Shown here in pieces: positions 48,868-64,000 of a stretch of 64,000 nt of DNA. The notes under the pieces were generated by a model that was not told the origin of the DNA, made no database searches, and saw nothing but the letters and a program-made list of their open reading frames with translations. Origin of the DNA: a virus; IMG/VR virus record IMGVR_UViG_3300043639_000076, positions 3,463-67,462 of that record. One strand, written 5' to 3'. The number at the start of each line of letters is the position of its first letter. Position 1 is the stretch's first letter. The position numbers and the translations under genes are program-made.

Positions 48868-48895
48868 AAAACGGCAGGTTTCCTGCCGTTTTTTT
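48868..48895 (+). terminator. Rho-independent terminator after VapE
   Basis: AAAACGGCAGG-TTT-CCTGCCGTTTT plus T run. Confidence 0.8.
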
Positions 48896-48899
48896 GTTT

Positions 48900-49075
48900 T
48901 AGGCCCACCCTGTTTTAGGTCGTGTTTTGAGGTCGTGGTCCAAAATCCATAGACACTGTCTGCATCCCACTACTATAACCACCTCCACTACCTATGGGGT
49001 TAGTTATATTGATTTAAGGGGGGAGATTCCCATAGAACTTTTTGGCCACTACGTGGAGGAGGAGGTCGTGGTGGG
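48900..49075. other. Candidate replication origin
   Basis: Non-coding, AT-enriched; CCAC(T/G)AC(CT) motif in both orientations (6 copies) right after primase/helicase genes. Confidence 0.5.
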
Positions 49076-54297: not shown

Positions 54298-54488
54298 GGT
54301 GGGAGGGCCGGCGTCGGAAGAGTTTACGGTTCGCCGCCAAACGCCGAGTTTCGTTCTTTAAGCTGTTGTTCTTATTATTCCATCCCAAGAAACGAGACGA
54401 GACGATTGTGCATTCCAGTAAAAGGGAACCCTCCTACAATGGATAACGCGGCGGGATAGACGCCGCGTCATCCATGGGAGACATCACC

Positions 54489-55214
54489 TTGAGAAAGTTA
54501 CTCTACGCGGCCACGGCTCTGAGTGCCATGGCCTTTGTGCAGCCCGCGTCGGCGGTGTTGCAGATCAGCGCCGACATCAACGGCGCGCTGTTTAGCTGCC
54601 AGGATCAGGCGGCATGCGACACCAACGTCACGCCTGGCATCCTGTCCATCGCCGATCAGACCATCGGCGGCGTGCAGTTCCTGGGATCGGCGCAGACCCA
54701 GGTCATCGGCGCGACCAACTCACTCAACACCTCGACTTTTCAGGTCAACAACCTGACCGGCGGCACGGTGCCGATCACGGTGGCGATCTCGGGCACCAAC
54801 TTCCAGGGTCCGGTGCTGGCGTTCTCGGCGTCCGGTTCAGGGACGTTCCAGACCGCCGATGGGTCATCGGCGACCTTGACGTTCTGGGGTAGCGCGCTGA
54901 ACGAGCAAGGCGCGGACACGCCCACCGATCTGCCGGGTGTGTTGCTGGCGACGATGACGGAGGTGGCGACGGGCGACACGGATTCGTTCAACCAGGACTT
55001 CAGCGGGCCGTTCGCGGGACCGGCGCTCTACTCGATGAGCCTGGGAACGTCGGGTTTCCTGACGGCTGGCGGGTCGCTGGTCGGTCGGTCACAGGCCATC
55101 GTCACCCGTGAGGATGTGCCGGAACCGGCCAGCCTCGCGATCCTGGGTGCCGGTCTGGTGGGTCTGGGGCTGACGCGCCGCTTCCGGCGCGATAGCTTTG
55201 AGGTGGCGGCATGA
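54489..55214 (+). CDS. PEP-CTERM sorting-domain surface protein 1
   Basis: Signal peptide (MRKLLYAATALSAMAFVQPASA; TTG start after GGGAGA); Ser/Thr/Gly-rich body; VPEPASLAILGAGLVGLGLTRRFRR. Confidence 0.9.
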   Translation: MRKLLYAATALSAMAFVQPASAVLQISADINGALFSCQDQAACDTNVTPGILSIADQTIGGVQFLGSAQTQVIGATNSLNTSTFQVNNLTGGTVPITVAISGTNFQGPVLAFSASGSGTFQTADGSSATLTFWGSALNEQGADTPTDLPGVLLATMTEVATGDTDSFNQDFSGPFAGPALYSMSLGTSGFLTAGGSLVGRSQAIVTREDVPEPASLAILGAGLVGLGLTRRFRRDSFEVAA

Positions 55215-56011
55215 ACAGGGCGACAACCTTTCACGCGGCCATCGTCGGAGCCATGGGTGTCCTCGCCGTCGCCCTGGCTCCGACTCCGGTCGCCGCGCAT
55301 CTCGTGTTCCAGGGTGGTATCGATCTTGGTGGCACCGGGTTGGGCGCGGTCGATACGATTTTGACCATGAATGGTCAGGGATCGGAGACTGAGGAGTCGG
55401 GCAAGGTATCGTGGAACGGCACGACCAACGTCGTCGTGGGCGATCCCACGGGCGTCGGCGGGCCGTTGGCGGGCGGGGCGTATACCCTGGCTGGGTCCAC
55501 GACGATGACCGGGCAGAACCACACGGTGACCATGACGCAAACCGGCTGGACCGCGGGGGAGGGGCTTGGCATCGTGTTCAACCCGGCGGAACCCGGCCCG
55601 GTGGGTGGGGCGGCGAACGCGATCACGTTGCGCCAGATGACCATGACGATCTACGCGTCAGACGGCTCGGTGCAGTTCACCGCGCCGTGGTCGGAAGGGC
55701 CGTTGACCTTGCTGGCGGTCGATCCTGGGACCGGCAATACCGGTTATCTGTTCACCCTGGATCAGGCCGAGACGAACGCGCTCAACCATGTCACGGGGAT
55801 CGGGCCTGATAGCCGCGTGGGCCTGTTCGCCTACGTCACCGATGCCACGGGCGGTAACGAGACGTTCTTTGGCACCGTGATCCAGGCTGGTCTTTGCGAC
55901 GACTGCACGATCACCCCGGTGATCGTGGACACGCCGGAACCGGTGTCCATGGCGTTGCTGGGATCGGGGCTGGTCGGCCTCGCCGTGGCGCGTCGGCGTC
56001 GCCGTGCCTGA
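55211..56011 (+). CDS. PEP-CTERM sorting-domain surface protein 2
   Basis: Signal peptide (...AVALAPTPVAA); TPEPVSMALLGSGLVGLAVARRRRRA. Confidence 0.9.
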   Translation: MNRATTFHAAIVGAMGVLAVALAPTPVAAHLVFQGGIDLGGTGLGAVDTILTMNGQGSETEESGKVSWNGTTNVVVGDPTGVGGPLAGGAYTLAGSTTMTGQNHTVTMTQTGWTAGEGLGIVFNPAEPGPVGGAANAITLRQMTMTIYASDGSVQFTAPWSEGPLTLLAVDPGTGNTGYLFTLDQAETNALNHVTGIGPDSRVGLFAYVTDATGGNETFFGTVIQAGLCDDCTITPVIVDTPEPVSMALLGSGLVGLAVARRRRRA

Positions 56012-56161
56012 TGGTTTGGCCCGGTTGGCGGCGCTCGTGCTGTTCATCTGGGCGGTGATTTGCCTCGCGGTCTGGACCGTGTGGTGACGAGGTTGGCCTG
56101 GATATCCCCACCCCCTCCAGGCCGACAGGCGATGGTCTATCATCGTCACGACCCCCAACTG

Positions 56162-56209
56162 GACCCGGTTTCCGCCTCTTGCCAGAGGGCTGGAGCCGGG
56201 TCTTTTTTT
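56162..56209 (+). terminator. Terminator after PEP-CTERM genes
   Basis: GACCCGGTTTCC...GGAGCCGGGTC stem followed by T7. Confidence 0.65.
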
Positions 56210-57386
56210 AGTTCGACCAGCGGTCGCCGGGAATCACCCCCAGCACCGTGGTGCTGTTCATTTCCTTGCTGAACACTTTCAGGGTCTGCGGTTTGGTGGA
56301 CAGTTTCGGATTGAGCGCGGCCCAGGCCGCGAAATCGGCGAGGATAGTGGCGTGGTATTGCTCGAGTGGAGAGAGGACCGGTGATGGCGGTGGGTCAGGC
56401 GTGGGCATGGGTGGGATCGGCGGTGGCGGCTGTTCTGGTGGCGGTGGCGACGGCGACGGTGGTGGTGATGCTCCTGATCCAAGGAAAGCGATGGGAGCGA
56501 GGTCGAGGACCGGCCGATCCGCGAGAGTGACGATGTTCGACGGGGTCACTGGTCCCGACACAGCCTGTGATCCAAACACATTGATGTTAGTATATGTAAC
56601 GGGCACGTTAGTCGCGTTCCAGAGGCTGGTGCCACTGGAGCGGTCGTTGATGATGGTGTCGCCGTCGATCGTGGCGCTGGCGTTGGCGATCAGGTTGCCT
56701 TCCTCGCCGTAGGCGATGATGGCGGGGTTCTGCGTGTTCGGGCCTTGCTGGATGATGTTGTTGGCGATCGTGGCGTTACCGCCGTTCGGCAGGTCGATGG
56801 AGTAGCTGGCGCTGCCGGCGTTGTCGAAGATTCGGTTGCCGGTGATGACGTTGTTGGTGGCGCGGGATTTGACCTCGTGGCCGATCACGGCGTCGTGGAT
56901 ATAGCTGTTGGTCAACGTGAAAGTGTTGAGCGGGCCTACGTAGATGTTGTGGGTATGGCCGTCGCCGCCGATCCCGTTGTGGCTGAATTCCGAGTTGGTG
57001 ATGGTGATGTTGCCGGCGGGATCGGCGGCGGCGAGGATGCCGTCCTGGTTGTCGTGGATGAAGACGTTGTCCAGCGTGAGGTTGCCGCCCTGGTAGCGAA
57101 TGCCGGCCCCGTTGGCGTCGGGCACGGTCACGCCGGATATGTCGAAGCCGCTGATGGTGACGTTGCCGCTCTCGGTGATGTAGGCCTTGCCATCCGGCGG
57201 TTGCGCCGTGGCGAGAAGCTTCACCCAGCCGCCTTGGGCGATCAGCGTCAGGTCGTGGTCGATCTGGAGCCAGTCGTTGGTGTAGGTGCCGGCATTGACG
57301 GTGATGGTGTCGCCGGCGGATGAGGCGGCGACGGCGGCTGAGATGGTGGCGTAGGCTTGGTTTTGTCCGACCGAGAGGATGGCCAT
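56208..57386 (-). CDS. Right-handed parallel beta-helix (pectin-lyase-like) protein with Pro-rich linker
   Basis: LSVG...YATISAAVAA..AGDTI.V.AGTY; NGAGIR; HDNQDGIL; HNIYVG; GHEVKSRA; SIDLPNGG. Confidence 0.85.
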   Translation of the reverse strand: MAILSVGQNQAYATISAAVAASSAGDTITVNAGTYTNDWLQIDHDLTLIAQGGWVKLLATAQPPDGKAYITESGNVTISGFDISGVTVPDANGAGIRYQGGNLTLDNVFIHDNQDGILAAADPAGNITITNSEFSHNGIGGDGHTHNIYVGPLNTFTLTNSYIHDAVIGHEVKSRATNNVITGNRIFDNAGSASYSIDLPNGGNATIANNIIQQGPNTQNPAIIAYGEEGNLIANASATIDGDTIINDRSSGTSLWNATNVPVTYTNINVFGSQAVSGPVTPSNIVTLADRPVLDLAPIAFLGSGASPPPSPSPPPPEQPPPPIPPMPTPDPPPSPVLSPLEQYHATILADFAAWAALNPKLSTKPQTLKVFSKEMNSTTVLGVIPGDRWSN

Positions 57387-57423
57387 TTGGTGGTTCCTTG
57401 TGTGGTCGGGTCGGAGGTGTCGC

Positions 57424-57951
57424 ATGTCGAAGCTGAGTGATCCAGACGTGGCTGAAATCGTACTGGCGCTGAAGGCGAAATATGACATCGACGTACTGGT
57501 CGAGACGGGCACGTTCGAAGGTGACAGCACTCTCTGGGCGGCGGAACGATTTCGTCACGTCTTCACCATCGAGGTGTTCTCGGACTTTCAGGATTTGGCC
57601 CGCGAACACTGCGCCAGTCATGCCAATGTGACGTTTCTTTCCGGCAACACGCGGTTCGTCCTGCCGTTCGTCGCGTCGGTGCTGACGGGGCCGTCGATGT
57701 TCTGGCTGGATGCCCACTCGGCACCCGGCCTGTTCGGCGAGGCGGATGACTGGCCGGTCATGGAGGAACTGGCGGTGATCGAGCAATCACAATTCCATCA
57801 TGTGATTCTAATCGATGACGCGCACTGTTTTATGCCGGGGACGCCGCATCCGGCGTGTCCGCCGCTCGGCGCGGTGGAAAAATGGGCGCTGTTGTCTGGC
57901 TACGACTGCGCGGTCAGGGGCGACGTGATCGTGCTGACGCCGGTCGAGTGA
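57424..57951 (+). CDS. SAM-dependent methyltransferase-fold protein
   Basis: VETGTFEGDS, VFTIE, FWLDAH, P.MEEL..I, ILIDDA; RBS GGAGG. Confidence 0.8.
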   Translation: MSKLSDPDVAEIVLALKAKYDIDVLVETGTFEGDSTLWAAERFRHVFTIEVFSDFQDLAREHCASHANVTFLSGNTRFVLPFVASVLTGPSMFWLDAHSAPGLFGEADDWPVMEELAVIEQSQFHHVILIDDAHCFMPGTPHPACPPLGAVEKWALLSGYDCAVRGDVIVLTPVE

Positions 57952-58015
57952 ATTTTTGAATCAGGTGCAAAAACCGGGGGTCGGATTTTTGAATCAGGTG
58001 CAAAAACCGGGGGTT
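57950..58015 (+). repeat. 33-bp repeat cluster A (2 tandem copies)
   Basis: G(A/G)ATTTTTGAATCAGGTGCAAAAACCGGGGGT(C/T) x2. Confidence 0.95.
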
Positions 58016-58046
58016 GCTTTTAAGCGACCGGCTTAAAAGCAACCCC
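58010..58046. repeat. Perfect 16-bp inverted repeat with 5-nt loop
   Basis: GGGGTTGCTTTTAAGC-GACCG-GCTTAAAAGCAACCCC. Confidence 0.9.
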
Positions 58047-58070
58047 ATTTTCGGATTTTCCAGGCCTTTT

Positions 58071-58130
58071 TTTCGGCGGTTTTCGGCGGTTTTCGGCGGT
58101 TTCAGGCGGTTTCAGGCGGTTTCAGGCGGC
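58071..58130 (+). repeat. 10-bp tandem repeat x6
   Basis: TTTCGGCGGT x3, then TTCAGGCGG(T/C) x3. Confidence 0.95.
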
Positions 58131-58382
58131 GCTCGGACGCCGGCCGGCGACCCGGCGGATCGGCGGCGGCGGGTTGTCGAGGTGCAGCGCGGCCAGCCGC
58201 TCGACCCAGGCCACGACATCCTCCGGCGGCGCGGTGCGGCCGTCGCACCAGTAGATCGCCGTCGTGTGACCGATCTGGATCTGTTCGGAGAGCGTCGCGC
58301 GGGTCCAGCCGACCGTGTCCATGGCCGCGCGCAGCCGTTCACCGAGTGTCGGTGGCGTCGGTGTCTTCCTTGGCTTTTTCAT
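58122..58382 (-). CDS. XRE-like HTH protein, paralog 1
   Basis: LRAAMDTVGWT..TLS..I.I..T...W.DG...PP..V.AW..RLA..H..NPPP. Confidence 0.72.
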   Translation of the reverse strand: MKKPRKTPTPPTLGERLRAAMDTVGWTRATLSEQIQIGHTTAIYWCDGRTAPPEDVVAWVERLAALHLDNPPPPIRRVAGRRPSAA

Positions 58383-58578
58383 CGTTGATCTCCTGGATCA
58401 GATCCCAGTGGTGGATGCGCGCGGTGTAGCGGCCATTCCGGCCGTAAAAGGCGACCTCGCCTTTCGTGTTGATGCCGGCGAACCGGTTGGTCCCCGTGGC
58501 GGTGGTTTCGCATTCGATGGTGATGCGCTCGCCGCGGCGGTTCAGGTATGAACCGCCGACTTTCAGCGTGACTGGCAT
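58339..58578 (-). CDS. Hypothetical protein
   Basis: LKVG..Y.NR.GE.I.I...NG.Y....DL pattern. Confidence 0.6.
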   Translation of the reverse strand: MPVTLKVGGSYLNRRGERITIECETTATGTNRFAGINTKGEVAFYGRNGRYTARIHHWDLIQEINDEKAKEDTDATDTR

Positions 58579-58581
58579 GGC

Positions 58582-59520
58582 TCATCCCCGCAGGATCTTG
58601 ACCGCGTCCACGGTCGTCAGGTTACGCATCAGCCCGTCGTCGCCCATCTGTTGGATGACGTGGACGGATTTGTCGTGGCGTTTCATGTCCTTCTGACCCC
58701 AGGCGATGATGTCACCGGGCTTGCAGGGGAGGCGCATGATGCCGGCCTCGCCGACGCGGCCGATCCACTCGCCCCAGTTGTACGTCAGCTTGCCGGCGGC
58801 GGCGTCGAGCGTGACGGTGGCGCACCAGGGCTTGCCATCGCGGCGGGAATTGTAGGCCGCGGTTTCCCGCTCCCAGTAGCCGCTTTCCAGGCGTCCCGCT
58901 CCCAGCGCGACCAGCGCCGCCTTTTTCTCGGCCGCTTCGATGGCGGCGGCTTCGGCTGAGATCTTGTCGGCTTCCACCTTCTCCTCGCGCAGCCGTGGCA
59001 GGGCTGCTTCGATGGCGGCGTTGTTCCTGACTTCGATGGCGTTGGTCATGGCGCTGAACGCCGCCTCGAGACGCGCCCAGATCGGATCCGCGCGACGGTC
59101 GGCGGTGACCCTCCGGTCATACATCCCTGGACGCGGAATGTGCGGCGGCTTCCAGTTGGTCAGTTCGCCCAGTGCCGCGAAGGTGTCGGGATCGCGGATG
59201 AGCCGCTGGTATTCGATCGGCTCGGCGGCGCGCGTCGCCGCGATGGCGGCTTCGATCTCGGCCGTGATCTCGTTCCAGCCGGCTTCGAAGTAGGCCTTGT
59301 CGGCCGCGACGGCGGCGATGACCGCCTCGATGGTCGGTGCGGCGATGTTGCGCGCCTGGCAGACCGCTGACCCGTCATTGGACAGGTCGAGCGCGGCGAC
59401 GACATCGGGCCAGGCGTCGCCAAAATCCGCCGGCGCGGCGTCGAGGACGGCGGTCTGGCCAATCTCGTGGCCGGCCAACAGCGCGGCGCGGCGGTCGATG
59501 TTGCGGAGCGTGATCTTCAT
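58582..59520 (-). CDS. Hypothetical protein (312 aa)
   Basis: Long ORF; C-terminal YNSRR..KPW.A...PGDIIA.GQKD; AGGGAAACCC leader. Confidence 0.75.
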   Translation of the reverse strand: MKITLRNIDRRAALLAGHEIGQTAVLDAAPADFGDAWPDVVAALDLSNDGSAVCQARNIAAPTIEAVIAAVAADKAYFEAGWNEITAEIEAAIAATRAAEPIEYQRLIRDPDTFAALGELTNWKPPHIPRPGMYDRRVTADRRADPIWARLEAAFSAMTNAIEVRNNAAIEAALPRLREEKVEADKISAEAAAIEAAEKKAALVALGAGRLESGYWERETAAYNSRRDGKPWCATVTLDAAAGKLTYNWGEWIGRVGEAGIMRLPCKPGDIIAWGQKDMKRHDKSVHVIQQMGDDGLMRNLTTVDAVKILRG

Positions 59521-59611
59521 GGCAGGGTTTCCCTCTGGGGATTAATCGTCCGCGGGATGCGGACCATCTCGCTGGGTATCCTGGACATCCCAGGCATACC
59601 CGGCGGCATGG

Positions 59612-59818
59612 TCAGGCGTCGTGATCGATGAGCGCGCCAATGGCCTCGTTATTGGCGTGTGCCTGGGCGCGGTAGGCCTTCCTGATCCAGGCCTGGGCGT
59701 CCGCTCTGGTTTCGAAGGTGGCGCAGTTCTGAGCGGGAAGGTTGAAGGGTTTGCGCCGCACCATCCAGGGCTTGTTCGTGGGTTCCTGGAGGTGATGGAT
59801 GAGGTAGCTGTAGGTCAT
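59612..59818 (-). CDS. Hypothetical protein
   Basis: F.TR.DA.AWI motif; in leftward operon. Confidence 0.55.
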   Translation of the reverse strand: MTYSYLIHHLQEPTNKPWMVRRKPFNLPAQNCATFETRADAQAWIRKAYRAQAHANNEAIGALIDHDA

Positions 59819-59821
59819 GGT

Positions 59822-60088
59822 TCAGGCCTTCTGGCTTTTGATGGCGCGGATGATCGCGCCCAGTTCGTCATAGATCGCGACGACCGACCGGACCCGCTGG
59901 CTGTTCTGTTCCTGGGCCAGCGAGAAGGTGGAGGGGGTCTGGATGTAATAGTCGCGGCCGTTCGGCGCGGCGTCCTGCAAGGTCAGAGCGGCCTCGTGGA
60001 GCGCGTTGCGTGCCCGCATCAGACCTTCGATCAGGTCGTCCTTGTCGGAGCCGTTGGAGTGGATCGTGGGGACTGCGATGGTGGTCAT
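59822..60088 (-). CDS. Phage hypothetical protein
   Basis: PTIH.NG....L, APNGRDYY; AGGGAAACCC leader. Confidence 0.7.
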   Translation of the reverse strand: MTTIAVPTIHSNGSDKDDLIEGLMRARNALHEAALTLQDAAPNGRDYYIQTPSTFSLAQEQNSQRVRSVVAIYDELGAIIRAIKSQKA

Positions 60089-60147
60089 GTCGGGTTTCCC
60101 TCTGGGATGGTGGAGTAGCCCGCTCCTCGTGGAGCGGGCCGGGTTGG

Positions 60148-60378
60148 TCAGTCGATGGTGGGTTTGACTTCCTGGATGAGGCCGTTGTCCCAGTGCGGGT
60201 AAACCAGGGGGCCGGTGGCATCGATGGCGCGGAACAAGCGGGCCAGATCGTCGTCCTTGTTGAAGGCGCTGCCGGCGACCCGGTTGACCGCGGTGTAGGG
60301 GTTGGTGGCCATGGCGAAGGCAATCTCTTTCGCGATGTAGACGAGTTCGCGAACAGCGTGGAGTTCCTGGGCGTTCAT
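60148..60378 (-). CDS. Hypothetical protein, first gene of leftward operon
   Basis: AGGGAAACCC leader; downstream of predicted promoter. Confidence 0.65.
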   Translation of the reverse strand: MNAQELHAVRELVYIAKEIAFAMATNPYTAVNRVAGSAFNKDDDLARLFRAIDATGPLVYPHWDNGLIQEVKPTID

Positions 60379-60424
60379 GATCGGGTTTCCCTTCTGTGTG
60401 GCGGCCGGTTCGTCTCGGCCAGTG

Positions 60425-60500
60425 GTGATTAATTAGTCCCGTGATCTCACAAAGGCAAGCGATATTTTGTGATCATCGTGATTTAATCTGTCACAAAAAC
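60425..60500. promoter_or_regulatory. Divergent promoter/operator region
   Basis: Minus-strand TTGCCT-N17-TAATTA enclosing palindrome GTGATCTCAC; inverted TTTTGTGA...TCACAAAA; AT-rich. Confidence 0.6.
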
Positions 60501-60601
60501 GCATGCCAGCCATGCGCGCCGGCATTTGGTCTGGCGTTGCTTTCGGATCCGGCTTCGTGGTCATGGTACGAGGTCTGAATGTTCATGAGGGAAACCCGGA
60601 G

Positions 60602-60790
60602 ATGATGATGTCGATGATGATGTTGACGTTGACGCGAGAAGAGAGGGTCGAGGCGGCGCGGCTGATGTATGAGCGGCGCGCGGAGCGGCTGGTGGGGCAT
60701 CATATGCCGGCCTGGGAAGGTCTTTCGGATATGCAGCGCGAGCGGCTGATCCAGGTCGAGGCGGATCGCATGGCGCTGGTGCGGTCGTGA
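60602..60790 (+). CDS. Hypothetical protein
   Basis: GAGGGAAACCC leader before ATG run; PAWEGLS..QRE motif. Confidence 0.55.
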   Translation: MMMSMMMLTLTREERVEAARLMYERRAERLVGHHMPAWEGLSDMQRERLIQVEADRMALVRS

Positions 60791-61197
60791 GGTTGTTTCC
60801 GCGTAGCGAGGCATGGCCGGCGGCGGTTTCGGCCGAGGCGGTGTTGGAGGCCTTCGACCGGGCGCGCGCCGCTGGCGTTAATTCGCCGGGGCTGCGGCTC
60901 GGCGATTTTAATTTTCGGCCAGCGCCGCCGGCCGGCCGCAATGCCGGCGCGATTTACGTGACCCGGCGGCGCATTTACCTGGGCAAGATCCTGTACGGCC
61001 GTTTCACGCCATCGTCGGATTGCGACCAGGTGACGACCGACGCGGTGGTGGCGACGGTCGCCGACCCCCAGGCGGCGGCGGTGGCTTATGGCCGCGACAC
61101 CGGGCGGTGTTCCTGTTGTGGTCGGTTGCTGACAGACCCCGAGAGCGTAAGAGTGGGAATCGGCCCGATCTGCGCGGGTCGATATTTCGGGGAGTGA
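60787..61197 (+). CDS. DUF6011-domain protein
   Basis: YG..TGRCSCCGRLLTDPESV.VGIGPIC. Confidence 0.8.
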   Translation: MRLFPRSEAWPAAVSAEAVLEAFDRARAAGVNSPGLRLGDFNFRPAPPAGRNAGAIYVTRRRIYLGKILYGRFTPSSDCDQVTTDAVVATVADPQAAAVAYGRDTGRCSCCGRLLTDPESVRVGIGPICAGRYFGE

Positions 61198-61202
61198 CAA
61201 TA

Positions 61203-61415
61203 ATGGGGGATCTGTCCTGGGTTGATCTTCGCTGCCGCTGCGGCGCGGATCACGTCATCGCGCTGGCACCAGGGTTTGACCCCAGAGGGGAGGGGGGCGG
61301 AACGCTTACTCTGTTCGACCCGCCGGCGATCAAGGACCGGGCATGGTGCGTCGATTGCTGGCGCGCTTCGTTTGTTTCGGTTAGTGCCGCGAGAGGGGCG
61401 GCTGTCCTGCCCTGA
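61203..61415 (+). CDS. Small zinc-binding protein
   Basis: CRCG...WCVDCW. Confidence 0.55.
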   Translation: MGDLSWVDLRCRCGADHVIALAPGFDPRGEGGGTLTLFDPPAIKDRAWCVDCWRASFVSVSAARGAAVLP

Positions 61416-61435
61416 TCTCTGTCGGGGGTTTTGGG

Positions 61436-61990
61436 TTGGTCGTCAGTCGGTCGCGCCAGAGGGGGGATCCTCGTTCTGGGTCTGACCTGGGGCCGGGGCT
61501 GCGCCGGCGACCGGTGCGTGACCGATTTGGCGAGGTGTTGCGGGAGCCTGACATCGAGGTCAGCGATCGGGCGGCGGATCCGGACAATCCCAACCGCCGG
61601 CTGCGGCGGGCCTATCGCGTGGACTCGGTCGAACTGCTGCGCCGCGCCGGCACGCTCGGTCCACGCGAGGTCGAGGCGGCGGAAGAACTGCGCGCGCACC
61701 TGGAGCGGCTGGTCGCATCCGGTGGCGGGGACTTCGCTCGTGTTTCGTTGTCGGGCTACCCGGTCGAGCCGATCAGCGACAGCCAGCTACGATCGTCCAG
61801 GCACCTGCGTGAGGCCCAGGACGCGCTCGGCATGGTGACGTGGCCGGCGGTGTTGTGGGTTTGTCTGGGCGGTACGGTGCGGGGATATTGCGAGCGGGAG
61901 TTGATCGACCGCCGGCGTGGCACCGCGCGCGTGATAGAGGGAATGCAACGGCTGGCGGTTTACTTTTACGGGGACGGGGTCACGGGATGA
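61436..61990 (+). CDS. DUF6456-like transcriptional activator/antiterminator (start uncertain)
   Basis: L.R.GTL..REV.AAE.LR...E, A.DALG.....VL.VCL, ER, L..L..F C-terminal HTH pattern. Confidence 0.6.
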   Translation: MVVSRSRQRGDPRSGSDLGPGLRRRPVRDRFGEVLREPDIEVSDRAADPDNPNRRLRRAYRVDSVELLRRAGTLGPREVEAAEELRAHLERLVASGGGDFARVSLSGYPVEPISDSQLRSSRHLREAQDALGMVTWPAVLWVCLGGTVRGYCERELIDRRRGTARVIEGMQRLAVYFYGDGVTG

Positions 61991-62742
61991 GTATTCGGGT
62001 TGTTTGCTGGTTTTCCTGCGGCGACGCATCGGCCGTGGCGACCAAGTTGGCCCTGGCCAAATACCTCGATGATGAGGTCGCCGTGGCGCGCTGCGTGGTG
62101 CCGGAAGAGCATCCGGACAATGACAGATTCGCGCGCGACTGCGCCGAATGGTTCGGTGTCGAGGTTAATGATCTGAAGAGCGTCGAGTATGCTTCATGCG
62201 ATGAGGTGTGGCGCAAACGCCGGTATATGAGCGGCGTGTTGGGGGCGATCTGTTCGGTGGAAATGAAAAAGGTCGTGCGGCATGCGTTCGAACGCGTGTG
62301 GCATCCGGACGTGCAGGTTTTCGGCTACACCGCGGAAGAGGCTGACAGGGCTGATCGGTTTCGCTCGCAGAACCCCGATGTTGTTTTGGAATGCCCGCTG
62401 ATCGATGAGGGGCTTTCGAAGGAAGATTGCCACGCCATCGTGCGTCGCGCCGGCCTGGAAGTGCCCGAGATGTATCGATTGGGCTACCCCAACGCGAACT
62501 GTATTGGTTGCGTTAACGCACAGAGTCCAACTTATTGGAATCATGTTAGGAAGACATTCCCAGACATTTTCGACCAGCGCGCGCGTCTGAGCCGGGAACT
62601 CGACGTGCGTTTGGTGAAGGGGACGCTCGGCGATCGGGAGCGGCTGTTCCTGGACGAACTGGATCCGGAACTCGGCCGCGACGTGGCGATGCCGGCGATG
62701 GAATGCAGTTTGCTTTGTTACATGGCCGAACAGAAGTTGTGA
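61987..62742 (+). CDS. PAPS-reductase-like (PP-loop) protein
   Basis: VVCWFSCG.ASAVA, EEHPDN.RF, C..EMKK, FGYTAEE..R..RF, PLI, MY.LGY.NANCIGCV. Confidence 0.82.
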   Translation: MSIRVVCWFSCGDASAVATKLALAKYLDDEVAVARCVVPEEHPDNDRFARDCAEWFGVEVNDLKSVEYASCDEVWRKRRYMSGVLGAICSVEMKKVVRHAFERVWHPDVQVFGYTAEEADRADRFRSQNPDVVLECPLIDEGLSKEDCHAIVRRAGLEVPEMYRLGYPNANCIGCVNAQSPTYWNHVRKTFPDIFDQRARLSRELDVRLVKGTLGDRERLFLDELDPELGRDVAMPAMECSLLCYMAEQKL

Positions 62743-62830
62743 GTTTTTGGGTCAGGTGCAAAGACCTGGTCTAATTGGTCAAATTGAAAACCCCGCCGAG
62801 AGGCGGGGTTTTTGAGTCAGGTGCAAAGCG
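62742..62830 (+). repeat. Repeat cluster B (2 core copies flanking a terminator)
   Basis: TTTTTGGGTCAGGTGCAAAG and TTTTTGAGTCAGGTGCAAAG. Confidence 0.9.
62787..62813. terminator. Bidirectional Rho-independent terminator
   Basis: AAAACCCCGCC-GAGA-GGCGGGGTTTTT between convergent genes. Confidence 0.85.
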
Positions 62831-62835
62831 GTGGG

Positions 62836-63117
62836 TCAGCGGAGGTCTTTTTCCTTCCAAATCGCGTAGGCATGCCGCCCCTCGACCCGGTAAATTCCGC
62901 CTTGCTCGGTCTGGGCGATCAGGTACTTGCCCGACGCGCCTTTGACCTCGACCCAGACGCGTTCGGACCATTGGCCGCGGCTTTGGCAGACCTTGATCAT
63001 GTCGCCGGGGGCGATCATGGCCAGTTCGCGCGGCGTGGGGGCTTCGAAGGTGTCGGGATGGTCAATGTGCATTTGCTGTGCGTCGGTCAGTCCGCGCATG
63101 ATGGGGTAGGTGGGCAT
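62836..63117 (-). CDS. Hypothetical protein
   Basis: HPDTFE.P...L..I.PGD..KV...ER.WVEV motif; AGGGAAACCC leader. Confidence 0.7.
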   Translation of the reverse strand: MPTYPIMRGLTDAQQMHIDHPDTFEAPTPRELAMIAPGDMIKVCQSRGQWSERVWVEVKGASGKYLIAQTEQGGIYRVEGRHAYAIWKEKDLR

Positions 63118-63132
63118 GGTCTGGGTTTCCCT

Positions 63133-63348
63133 TCAGGCCGGGTTGAAACGGGTCGAGATGCGGGGGGCGGGGTATCTGCGATGCTCGCGGGCCAGCGCTT
63201 TCATCCAGGTGGCGACAGCCTTGGGCACCGGGAGCCGGCCGGAGGCCCACCGGCGCACATTGGTTTCCTCGACCTCCAGCCGTGTGGCCAGGCCGCGCAT
63301 GGTCCAGCCGATATCGGTGAGGCAGTCGATGAATTCATGGTTGTTCAT
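63133..63348 (-). CDS. XRE-like HTH protein, paralog 2
   Basis: EF..CL..IGWT.RGLA..L.V.ET.VRRW.SG..PVP..VA.W..ALA..H...PAP; AGGGAAACCC leader. Confidence 0.8.
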   Translation of the reverse strand: MNNHEFIDCLTDIGWTMRGLATRLEVEETNVRRWASGRLPVPKAVATWMKALAREHRRYPAPRISTRFNPA

Positions 63349-63380
63349 GGTGTGGGGTTTCCCTCCGTTGGTGGTGCCGT

Positions 63381-63409
63381 GTTTTGCCGCGCCTTGCGGC
63401 ATATGTCAA
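63381..63409 (-). promoter_or_regulatory. Promoter with palindromic operator candidate upstream of HTH paralog 2
   Basis: Minus-strand TTGACA (63404-63409) with TGCCGC-N5-GCGGCA in the spacer. Confidence 0.55.
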
Positions 63410-63621
63410 GCCTCGCGTGCCTGTCCGCGCAGATCTGGCGGTGGATTTTCGTCCATTTGTTGGGCGAGCCGGCGCAGCCATAGTTCGACGTTGACCGGCA
63501 CCTTGCGCTCGCCGCTTTTCCAGCGCCGGAACCGGCGCTGATCGACGTCGAGCATTTGCATCAGCCACGACTCGCGCAGCGGCAAAACGTAGAGGCAATC
63601 GCGAAACTCTTCAGGTGTCAC
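63406..63621 (-). CDS. XRE-like HTH protein, paralog 3
   Basis: GTG start after AGGGAAACCC; MTPEEF..CL.......L...L.V..R.FRRW.SG...VP..V..WL..LA......PPP. Confidence 0.75.
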   Translation of the reverse strand: MTPEEFRDCLYVLPLRESWLMQMLDVDQRRFRRWKSGERKVPVNVELWLRRLAQQMDENPPPDLRGQAREA

Positions 63622-63665
63622 GGTTTGGGGTTTCCCTCTCGAAACGCTGGCCGCGAGTCGATAGT

Positions 63666-63799
63666 GGATTTTGAGTCCAGGTGCAAAAAGTGGGGGTCGG
63701 ATTTTGAGTCCAGGTGCAAAAACGGGGGGTCCAATTTTTTGGTCAGGTGCAAAGACGGGGGGTCCGATTTTGGAATCAGGTGCAAAAAGGGGGGGGGTC
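63666..63799 (+). repeat. 33-bp repeat cluster C (4 tandem copies)
   Basis: Units start at 63666, 63699, 63732 and 63765; each is ATTTT..N..CAGGTGCAAA..GGGGG(G)TC. Confidence 0.95.
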
Positions 63800-64000
63800 G
63801 AGGGCACTTTTCGGCCGTTTTTCGGGGGGTCAATCCCAAAAATGAGACGATTTTGAGGGGGTCCGGAGGGGCACCATACCGTCCGGACGGTACAGTCAGG
63901 AAACGGCGGATTTCCGCCATTTTTCGGGGGCATGGCAGGGGCAGAGGGGCACGGCCGGCCGTCATGCCGGGGCACGGCCGGAGCCGGGGCAGAGGGGCAG

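What the first reader, a model, noticed from the sequence alone, without database searches (positions are those of the whole stretch)
58010..58130. Perfect 16-bp palindrome followed by helically phased 10-bp tandem repeats
Seen: a 16-bp inverted repeat overlapping the second 33-bp unit. Degenerate TTTTCGG/TTTTCCAGG units follow, then six 10-mers that switch from TTTCGGCGGT to TTCAGGCGGT and run into the stop of HTH paralog 1. Similar TTTTCGG units recur after cluster C (about 63808-63830 and 63920). Inference: T-tracts at one-turn spacing give intrinsically bent DNA next to a cruciform-capable site, so this may be a structural or recombination site rather than just a terminator.
Basis: partly seen in the sequence, partly recalled or inferred. 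Interest (0 to 1): 0.5.

Follow-up and report, generated by a model that had tools for sequence, protein, structure and literature searches.

The report
Phage terminator hairpin with expanded T-tract repeat
In an uncultured soil phage, the palindrome is most likely an ordinary transcription terminator between two converging genes, and the phased 10-base repeats beside it look like a lineage-specific slippage expansion that makes the DNA predicted-bent but is not kept in related phages.

Summary
It comprises two 33-bp units, a perfect 16-bp-arm inverted repeat (58010-58046, 5-nt loop), degenerate T-tracts, then six 10-mers (58070-58129) that end on the TGA of a minus-strand HTH gene.

The window is a 67-kb siphovirus-like phage contig. 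The hairpin lies between convergent genes. It folds at about -27 kcal/mol on either strand and is the top terminator-like site of the region, on the minus strand.

Five related records cover the junction:
- One keeps the same hairpin (15/16 pairs) with only three degenerate repeats, which there encode the HTH C-terminal tail.
- Two carry a different hairpin in the same slot, with one copy of the TTTYCAGGC motif.
- Two have neither hairpin nor array.

A/T-tract phasing here is the strongest in the genome, and modelled curvature is the fifth-highest peak. Bending is therefore predicted, but it is conserved only partly.

Best reading: a terminator plus a slippage-expanded tail. I found nothing to support a cruciform or recombination role.

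The more interesting feature is the 33-bp unit family. It has 8 copies, all in one orientation, is conserved in relatives, and usually sits upstream of leftward genes.

The parts
57424..57951 (+). Methyltransferase-like gene (175 aa) that converges on the hairpin from the left
   Evidence: ORF. Weak Methyltransf_24 match, E 0.0031, 18.8 bits, below the 26.3 cutoff. Conserved in relatives at 90, 80, 78, 71 and 57% aa identity.
57952..58017 (+). Two tandem 33-bp units (core TCAGGTGCAAA), members of an 8-copy family
   Evidence: The units are present after the same gene in G001, L136 and L288.
58010..58046 (.). Hairpin with a 16-bp perfect stem and 5-nt loop; a likely intrinsic terminator, mainly for the leftward operon
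58048..58069 (+). Degenerate T-tract units (TTTTCGG, ATTTTCCAGGCC, then a T7 run). The TTTYCAGGC motif is shared with relatives.
58070..58129 (+). Six tandem 10-mers (TTTTCGGCGG x3, TTTCAGGCGG x3). On the minus strand the last three carry TGA in all three frames.
   Evidence: TCA at 58102, 58112 and 58122 (read).
58122..58382 (-). HTH gene (86 aa), last gene of the leftward operon 60378->58122
   Evidence: HTH_31, E 1.5e-6, 28.8 bits, above the cutoff of 27. phrog_2328 transcriptional repressor, E 5.8e-9.
62742..62837 (+). Second unit-plus-hairpin module: unit, canonical bidirectional terminator hairpin (62785-62815), unit
63666..63795 (+). Four tandem 33-bp units directly upstream of a minus-strand HTH-like gene. 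They are followed by TTTTCGG motifs and a second strongly curved stretch.

Best explanation
The palindrome encodes the stem-loop of a Rho-independent terminator at the 3' end of the phage's leftward early operon (312-aa, 79-aa and HTH genes). The operon converges there with a rightward methyltransferase-like gene. On the minus strand the HTH stop is followed by about 75 nt of A/C-rich unstructured RNA, then the 16-bp hairpin, then CGGUUUUUG. On the plus strand the same hairpin is followed by AUUUUCGGAUUUUCC, so it may also stop rightward transcription, but less canonically. The 10-bp array is not a separate machine. It is a replication-slippage expansion of the A-rich (T-rich on the plus strand) stretch between the HTH gene and the hairpin. 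In the closest relative that stretch is three degenerate 10-11-mers encoding the Pro/Lys-rich C-terminal tail of the HTH protein. In this phage a repeat variant carrying TGA cut the ORF short and was itself triplicated. The phased T-tracts make the DNA predicted-bent as a by-product. Shown: the anatomy, position, folding energy, comparative pattern and phasing. Inferred: that termination happens, that the array arose by slippage, and that the bend has no required function.
For: Position: the element lies between convergent ORFs, with the stop codons at 57949-57951 (+) and 58122-58124 (-).

Terminator scan of 56000-64000: 17 sites against 9.0 +/- 3.0 in shuffles. The top row is this hairpin on the minus strand, with 16 pairs and tail CGGTTTTTGC.

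Folding: RNA hairpin energy is -27.7 (+) and -26.4 (-) kcal/mol. Canonical terminator hairpins elsewhere in the phage are -16 to -23. The hairpin is the dominant structure in both strand folds, and the upstream minus-strand RNA is unpaired in the centroid.

A second hairpin, flanked by A- and T-runs, sits between convergent genes at 62785-62815 in the same 33-bp-unit context.

Relatives:
- L288 has the same hairpin with 15 of 16 pairs, followed by TTTTCGGGTGG, TTTTCCTGGG and TTTTTGGGGG. These lie inside its HTH ORF tail ...RPPKTQENHPKTLSNF*.
- L136 and L297 carry another hairpin (10-bp arms, 8-nt loop) after a unit pair, with a single GTTTCCAGGCC or GTTTTCAGGCG.
- G001 has the units but no hairpin and no array.
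- L304 has none of these.

So a hairpin is present in 3 of the 5 related records. A 10-bp array of 6 clean copies is present in 0 of 5.

In our phage only one in-frame TGA separates the HTH ORF from 33 further open codons. Those codons read ..KPPETAEN.., like the L288 tail RPPKTQEN (read).
Against: The plus-strand tail has only 4 T in the first 8 bases, and the scan does not list the plus orientation. 'Bidirectional' is therefore only half supported.

The alternative hairpin in L136 and L297 has no T-run on the minus strand and only 3-4 T on the plus strand. The slot is thus not always filled by a canonical terminator.

A 16-bp perfect stem is longer than needed for termination.

Predicted curvature just past the hairpin is also very high in L288 (99.97th percentile of our genome's distribution, and the top peak of that locus) and fairly high in L297 (98.9). 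The same 'units then curved TTTTCGG stretch' order recurs at 63800-63880. Selection for a bend therefore cannot be excluded.

No transcript ends could be examined.
Confidence: 0.6

Rival explanations
1. The phased T-tract array is a functional architectural element. In this reading it is a static bend, or a row of weak binding sites, that works together with the neighbouring 33-bp units. Those units are presumed operators of one of the phage HTH regulators. The array would act, for example, by wrapping or looping DNA at the operon boundary.
For: This is the strongest A/T-tract phasing in the genome. Curvature is the fifth-highest peak here and the top peak in the L288 locus. The same order, units then a curved TTTTCGG-rich stretch, recurs after the four units at 63666-63795, and a curved stretch follows the corresponding units in G001. 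The 10-mer TTTCAGGCGG shares TCAGG-G with the invariant unit core TCAGGTG (by eye).
Against: The array is absent in G001 and L304, reduced to one motif in L136 and L297, and coding in L288. Three of the six units have only T3, which bends weakly (established knowledge of A-tracts). No partner protein is identified. Curvature after the hairpin in L136 reaches only about the 95th percentile.
Confidence: 0.2
2. The spacer (units plus hairpin) is a module-boundary sequence at which related phages exchange cassettes by recombination. The palindrome and repeats would be scars or facilitators of that exchange.
For: DNA homology with relatives stops inside this spacer: at 57944 (L297), 58015 (G001 and L136) and 58099 (L288). 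It resumes only at a conserved ~100-bp segment at 59511-59620. The 1.4-kb HTH/79-aa/312-aa cassette between them has no DNA match in any relative. In L136 an extra gene is bracketed by two unit pairs; recombination between those pairs would give exactly our arrangement.
Against: Junctions at gene boundaries are the general rule in phage mosaicism and need no dedicated site (established knowledge). Any conserved regulatory repeat gives such homology. No recombinase gene appeared in the PHROGs scans of 61 ORFs in all. No read or contig joint maps to the palindrome (contigs only).
Confidence: 0.1
3. The C-rich, unstructured minus-strand RNA made from the array is a Rho-loading (rut) site placed just after the stop codon, backing up the hairpin terminator.
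For: In the minus-strand RNA each 10-mer has 4 C and 2 G (read). The stretch is unpaired in the centroid fold and starts right at the stop codon.
Against: The C/G ratio of the 78-nt window is 1.51, only the 86.7th percentile for this genome's minus strand. The array is not conserved in relatives. The host and its Rho are unknown.
Confidence: 0.05
4. The perfect palindrome acts at the DNA level, as a cruciform, an operator of the adjacent HTH protein, a replication origin or a hairpin end.
For: It is the longest perfect inverted repeat of the window. The DNA hairpin energy is about -18 kcal/mol per strand. An HTH gene is adjacent.
Against: The likely-source contig spans it with 0 differences and no joint. 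GC skew does not switch here. L288 has a mismatch in the stem, and G001 lacks the palindrome. By eye, the L288 HTH (hairpin type 1) resembles the L136 HTH (hairpin type 2) more than ours, so hairpin type does not follow HTH type; no alignment was computed. 16-bp arms are far longer than usual operator half-sites.
Confidence: 0.03

Closest known systems
Rho-independent (intrinsic) terminators shared by convergent genes
   Same: A stem-loop with a G+C-rich base lies directly after two converging stop codons. A T-run follows on the minus strand, with an A-rich stretch on the other side that gives a T-rich tail for the plus strand.
   Different: The stem is unusually long (16 bp) with an A/T-rich upper half. 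The plus-strand tail is interrupted (AUUUUCGGAUUUU) and fails the scan's rule. No 3' ends are mapped. That an upstream A-tract goes with bidirectional terminators is my own knowledge; for the papers I saw only the search listing and the starts of abstracts.
A-tract intrinsically bent DNA (phased A/T runs, as in kinetoplast DNA and some phage origin or pac regions)
   Same: T-runs recur every 10 bp over about 80 bp. This is the top phasing signal and a top-five modelled curvature peak of the genome.
   Different: Tracts are short (T3-T4 apart from one T7). The period is 10.0 rather than about 10.5 bp. No mobility data exist. The array is not conserved in relatives. The named examples are recalled, not looked up.
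Tandem 10-11-bp iterons of ParR-type plasmid centromeres (parC of R1, pSK41)
   Same: Six or more direct repeats at one-turn spacing.
   Different: No partition genes appeared in the PHROGs scans of 61 ORFs. The repeats abut a gene's stop rather than a promoter, and they are absent from relatives. The comparison is recalled from memory.
Stoperators of cluster A mycobacteriophages (asymmetric repressor sites spread through the genome)
   Same: This applies to the 33-bp units, not the 10-mers. They are asymmetric repeated sites, all in one orientation, in short intergenic spaces and conserved across related phages. PMC9283540: search listing and start of abstract only.
   Different: The units come in tandem arrays of 2-4 at 33-bp spacing. 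There are only 8 copies, confined to the last 6 kb. No repressor binding is shown, and no integrase was found in the ORFs scanned.

Membership tests
Intrinsic (Rho-independent) terminator | Stable G+C-containing stem-loop in the transcript | tested here: met
   16 pairs, 8 of them G-C. Energy is -27.7 (+) and -26.4 (-) kcal/mol. It is the dominant structure in both strand folds.
Intrinsic (Rho-independent) terminator | U-run immediately 3' of the stem | tested here: inconclusive
   The minus strand has CGGUUUUUG, which passes the scan's rule and is the top hit. The plus strand has AUUUUCGGAUUUU, only 4 U in the first 8, and is not listed by the scan.
Intrinsic (Rho-independent) terminator | Located at the end of a transcription unit, after a stop codon | tested here: met
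   It lies 75 nt after the HTH stop on the minus strand and 58 nt after the methyltransferase-like stop on the plus strand.
Intrinsic (Rho-independent) terminator | RNA 3' ends map to the U-run | not testable with these tools
   No RNA data for this stretch were available, and the only runs laid were DNA contigs.
A-tract bent DNA | Runs of at least 4 A or T without TpA, repeated in phase with the helix | tested here: met
   Runs are T4, T4, T7, T4, T4, then T3 x3, with 3' ends spaced 8, 14, 10, 10, 9, 10 and 10 bp. This is the top periodicity peak of the genome, z 16.1. The last three tracts are only T3.
A-tract bent DNA | Anomalously slow gel migration or cyclisation | not testable with these tools
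   Only a model is available: end-to-end shortening of 0.11 over 60 bp, z 7.4, fifth-highest peak. The parameters were recalled from memory.
Iteron or centromere-like protein-binding array | Array conserved with its binding-protein gene in related elements | tested here: not met
   0 of 5 related records have a multi-copy clean 10-mer array. No partition or initiator gene lies next to it.
Stoperator-like repressor sites (33-bp units only) | Asymmetric site, single orientation, many intergenic copies | tested here: inconclusive
   8 of 8 copies are on the plus strand, in 3 intergenic loci. They are confined to 57951-63795 and arranged in tandem, unlike dispersed single stoperators.
Stoperator-like repressor sites (33-bp units only) | Bound by the phage repressor, blocking elongation | not testable with these tools
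   No binding or expression data are available.

The most novel reading that the evidence does not exclude
The block 'A-tract bend, hairpin, pair of 33-bp units' would be a portable, regulated boundary cassette of a new clade of soil phages. One of the paralogous HTH proteins would bind the one-orientation units cooperatively, helped by the adjacent static bend. That would make the terminator a switchable roadblock or promoter gate between exchangeable early-gene cassettes: a Proteobacteria-type counterpart of mycobacteriophage stoperators, with tandem 33-bp sites.
Probability: 0.12. Interest if true: 0.55.

Novelty: new member of a known kind. Interest (0 to 1): 0.25.

Why it matters
If the main reading holds, this is routine annotation. 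It marks the 3' end of the leftward early operon of an uncultured soil phage, and it shows how a tandem repeat can grow out of a gene's A-rich 3' end and truncate the protein tail. It also shows that 'phased T-tracts next to a palindrome' can arise as a by-product of a terminator tail. The wider value lies next door. The conserved, one-orientation 33-bp units mark the regulatory sites and cassette boundaries of this phage clade. They give concrete DNA targets for testing what its three HTH paralogs bind.

Tried and rejected
Searches for relatives that gave nothing:
- blastn of 57300-59600 against cultured phages found no match. The best cultured portal relative is below 47% aa identity.
- The exact and degenerate single-unit patterns had 0 hits in viral contigs.
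- The 312-aa neighbour had no relatives in viral contigs.

Searches that gave little:
By blastn only 2 of the fetched metagenome loci (L136, L145) and none of the fetched genome-contig loci are related. This gives no host clue.
- The hairpin-arm pattern in viral contigs gave 8 stretches. Seven are chance hits without the palindrome; one is the L288 record.
- The methyltransferase-like protein in viral contigs gave one distant locus, L304.

Other negative or uninformative results:
- Rfam gave three matches far below the gathering scores.
- No RNA holder is listed for this stretch.
- Only contigs could be laid. The likely-source contig spans the stretch unchanged. Contigs of three other runs end at 58070, 58090 and 58093 at low depth. 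This says nothing about copy number, strand ends or expression.
- GC skew shows no switch at 58 kb.
- The Rho-loading idea is weak: C/G ratio 1.51, 86.7th percentile.
- The sigma-70 promoter scan of 56000-64000 found 0 sites against 1.4 expected. My by-eye '-35-like TTGCAC' in the units therefore has no tool support.
- Earlier scan notes held nothing. One search failed on its word limit and was not repeated.
- A computed alignment of the HTH paralogs was not obtained, so the remark on their likeness is by eye.

Full report
WHAT THE WINDOW IS

The window is bases 3463-67462 of a single 67,462-bp virus contig with 62% G+C. PHROGs names a portal, protease, major head protein, head-tail connector, tail proteins, a clamp-like processivity factor, Dda-like and DnaB-like helicases and a primase among 46 ORFs scanned. 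Nearly all of these lie on the plus strand. The nearest cultured phage portal is below 47% identical, and blastn of the region finds nothing among cultured phages. It is therefore an uncultured, siphovirus-like soil phage; the runs that hold it are soil and rhizosphere metagenomes.

The last 6 kb is an early or regulatory region with short genes on both strands. It includes three HTH paralogs.

THE OBSERVATION

From left to right the region reads:
- the stop of a methyltransferase-like gene at 57949-57951 (+);
- two 33-bp units (57952-57984 and 57985-58017, 94% alike);
- an inverted repeat with perfect 16-nt arms (58010-58025 and 58031-58046) around a 5-nt loop, whose left arm overlaps unit 2;
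- TTTTCGG, ATTTTCCAGGCC and a T7 run;
- TTTTCGGCGG x3 and TTTCAGGCGG x3 (58070-58129).

The minus-strand TGA of an 86-aa HTH gene (58122-58382) lies inside the last 10-mer.

The palindrome is the longest perfect inverted repeat among 27 pairs in the window. The array is the only period-10 tandem repeat with more than 2.2 copies among 44 repeat rows.

IS IT BENT?

A parameter-free scan of A/T-tract periodicity (9.8-10.8 bp, 80-bp windows) puts this stretch first in the whole genome, z = 16.1.

A wedge-model trajectory gives an end-to-end shortening of 0.11 over 60 bp, z = 7.4, 99.8th percentile. This is the fifth-highest non-overlapping peak. The four higher peaks lie in non-coding DNA near the contig ends.

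Three of the six clean units carry only T3, which bends weakly.

WHAT THE HAIRPIN IS

The hairpin sits between convergent genes. The terminator scan of 56000-64000 finds 17 sites against 9.0 +/- 3.0 in shuffles. Its top row is this hairpin on the minus strand, with 16 pairs and tail CGGTTTTTGC. The plus orientation is not listed, because its tail AUUUUCGGAUUUU has only 4 U in the first 8.

The RNA stem is worth -27.7 (+) and -26.4 (-) kcal/mol. Three clearly canonical terminator hairpins elsewhere in the phage are worth -16 to -23. In 196-nt folds of either strand the hairpin is the dominant element, and the minus-strand RNA upstream of it is unpaired in the centroid.

A second hairpin (62785-62815, AAAACCCCGCC-GAGA-GGCGGGGTTTTT) lies between another convergent gene pair and is flanked on both sides by the same 33-bp unit. 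Rfam offers nothing, and GC skew does not turn here.

RELATIVES

Portal-based searching gave 65 related loci. The records that reach this junction are:
- G001, 72 kb, portal 96% identical;
- the L288 record;
- L136, from a metagenome;
- the L297/L286 record;
- the distant L304.

Their methyltransferase-like proteins are 78, 90, 71, 80 and 57% identical to ours. After that gene each record reads as follows.
- L288 has two units and the same hairpin with one mismatch (15 of 16 pairs). Then come TTTTCGGGTGG, TTTTCCTGGG and TTTTTGGGGG, which lie inside its HTH ORF and encode the tail RPPKTQENHPKTLSNF.
- L136 has two units, a 15-bp duplication, an extra minus-strand gene and two more units. Then comes a different hairpin (10-bp arms, 8-nt loop) followed by GTTTCCAGGCC.
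- L297 has no units after the gene. It has the extra gene, two units and the same alternative hairpin, followed by GTTTTCAGGCG.
- G001 has two units, no hairpin and no array. In their place is a small plus-strand ORF whose product looks like a lipoprotein signal peptide by eye.
- L304 has none of these.

A hairpin is therefore present in 3 of 5 related records, in two unrelated sequence versions. The clean six-copy array is present in none.

Both hairpin versions are followed by a TTTYCAGGC motif. That motif is also the body of our second 10-mer type. The hairpin-arm pattern found no further relatives: 1 true hit of 8.

HOW THE ARRAY AROSE (INFERENCE)

Read on the minus strand, the L288 stretch is three degenerate 10-11-mers (CCCCCAAAAA, CCCAGGAAAA, CCACCCGAAAA) in frame with the HTH tail.

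In our phage the HTH ORF ends at a TGA in the first repeat. The frame then stays open for 33 more codons, up to a TAA in the hairpin. It reads ..KPPETAEN.., close to the L288 sequence RPPKTQEN.

The three TGA-bearing repeats place stops in all three frames, with TCA at 58102, 58112 and 58122. This follows simply from a 10-bp period.

The simplest history is slippage amplification of an A-rich tail-coding 10-mer. One variant introduced a stop and turned the rest into 3' untranslated RNA.

Copy-number variation could not be examined. Only assembled contigs were available. The likely-source contig is identical to the window, and contigs from three other runs merely end inside the array at low depth.

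POINTS AGAINST A PLAIN 'TERMINATOR PLUS JUNK' READING

- Modelled curvature just past the hairpin is the top peak of the L288 locus (99.97th percentile of our genome's distribution) and is raised in L297 (98.9). In L136 it is only about 95.
- The order 'units, then a curved TTTTCGG-rich stretch' recurs at 63800-63880 and in G001.
- A terminator at 48868-48892 is likewise followed by a 13-bp T-tract duplication.
- The alternative hairpin of L136 and L297 lacks a proper U-run on either strand.
- Homology with relatives ends inside this spacer, at 57944, at 58015 (twice) and at 58099. It resumes only at a conserved ~100-bp segment at 59511-59620, so the 1.4-kb HTH cassette between them is unique to this phage.

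These points keep the architectural-bend and module-boundary rivals alive, at about 0.2 and 0.1. For a cruciform, origin or operator role of the palindrome I found nothing in support and several things against.

THE 33-BP UNITS (CONTEXT, OUTSIDE THE GIVEN COORDINATES)

A profile built from the eight copies finds exactly eight in the 67-kb genome. All are on the plus strand, at 57951-58014, at 62742-62772 and 62807-62837, and at 63666-63795.

Relatives carry 2 to 7 copies per fetched locus, always in one orientation. TCAGGTGCAAA and the T-run are invariant in the four-way alignment.

Unit clusters lie directly upstream of minus-strand gene starts in our 63666-63795 locus, in G001, in L136, in L297 and twice in L286. 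Read on the minus strand each unit contains TTGCAC preceded by a T-run. That looks like a -35 element to me, but the sigma-70 scan finds no promoter in 56000-64000.

My guess is that they are operator sites in front of leftward early promoters. The pair at 57952-58017 would then be what is left after a downstream cassette, present in L136 and L297, was lost. The nearest known analogy is the stoperator system of cluster A mycobacteriophages (PMC9283540, search listing and start of abstract only). The tandem arrangement and restricted distribution differ from that system.

VERDICT

The bend is predicted. The 'more than a terminator' interpretation is not supported. This is a new instance of known kinds of element: an intrinsic terminator with a slippage-expanded A/T-tract tail. 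Its interest is modest.

Noticed in passing
57951-58014, 62742-62837, 63666-63795; relatives L070, L136, L145, L286, L288, L297: A 33-bp unit family with invariant core TCAGGTGCAAA. There are 8 copies here, all on the plus strand and confined to the last 6 kb. It is conserved in related soil phages, usually in tandem pairs to quadruplets just upstream of minus-strand gene starts. These may be operator or promoter sites of the HTH paralogs.
   Followed up: partly
contig bases 1-530 (before the window) and window 63925-64000; L070 2700-2860: Both contig ends consist of GGGGCAG/GGGGCAC/GGCTCGG-type short repeats. The relative G001 ends in an analogous but different repeat field (GGTCGAGG/GGCCAGCGG). 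Together with about 0.9 kb of further non-coding DNA, which holds the strongest curvature peaks, this may be the packaging or replication region. It probably explains why the assemblies break there.
   Followed up: no
59521-59611: A ~100-bp non-coding segment holding an imperfect hairpin (GGGTATCCTGGACATCCCAGGCATACCC). It is 77-81% conserved in L288, L297 and G001 (twice in G001), although the genes on its left differ. It forms the right-hand boundary of the variable HTH cassette.
   Followed up: partly
58020-58124, minus strand: Only one in-frame TGA ends the HTH ORF. The frame stays open for 33 more codons into the hairpin and resembles the longer C-terminal tail of the L288 homologue. This suggests a recent truncation, or possibly stop-codon read-through.
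   Followed up: partly
48868-48937: Another canonical terminator hairpin (AAAACGGCAGG...CCTGCCGTTTT) after the helicase gene is followed by a 13-bp T-tract duplication (TGTTTTGAGGTCG, 2.2 copies) and a curvature peak. T-tract reiteration after hairpins may be a habit of this phage.
   Followed up: partly
54474-55214 and 55211-56011: Two adjacent phage genes end in PEP-CTERM sorting domains (TIGR02595, 22.6 and 21.1 bits against a cutoff of 16). This suggests that the unknown host has an exosortase system.
   Followed up: partly
L070 8060-8170 (G001), in place of the hairpin and array: The closest full-length relative carries a small plus-strand ORF whose product starts like a lipoprotein signal peptide (by eye). 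It sits where our phage has the hairpin and 10-mers.
   Followed up: no
L286 3100-3170: A 12-bp tandem repeat (GCGCGTTTCCTG-like, about 4-5 copies) lies inside the 3' part of a minus-strand gene of a relative. It is another T-tract-bearing tandem repeat next to a unit pair, but it has a coding period.
   Followed up: no
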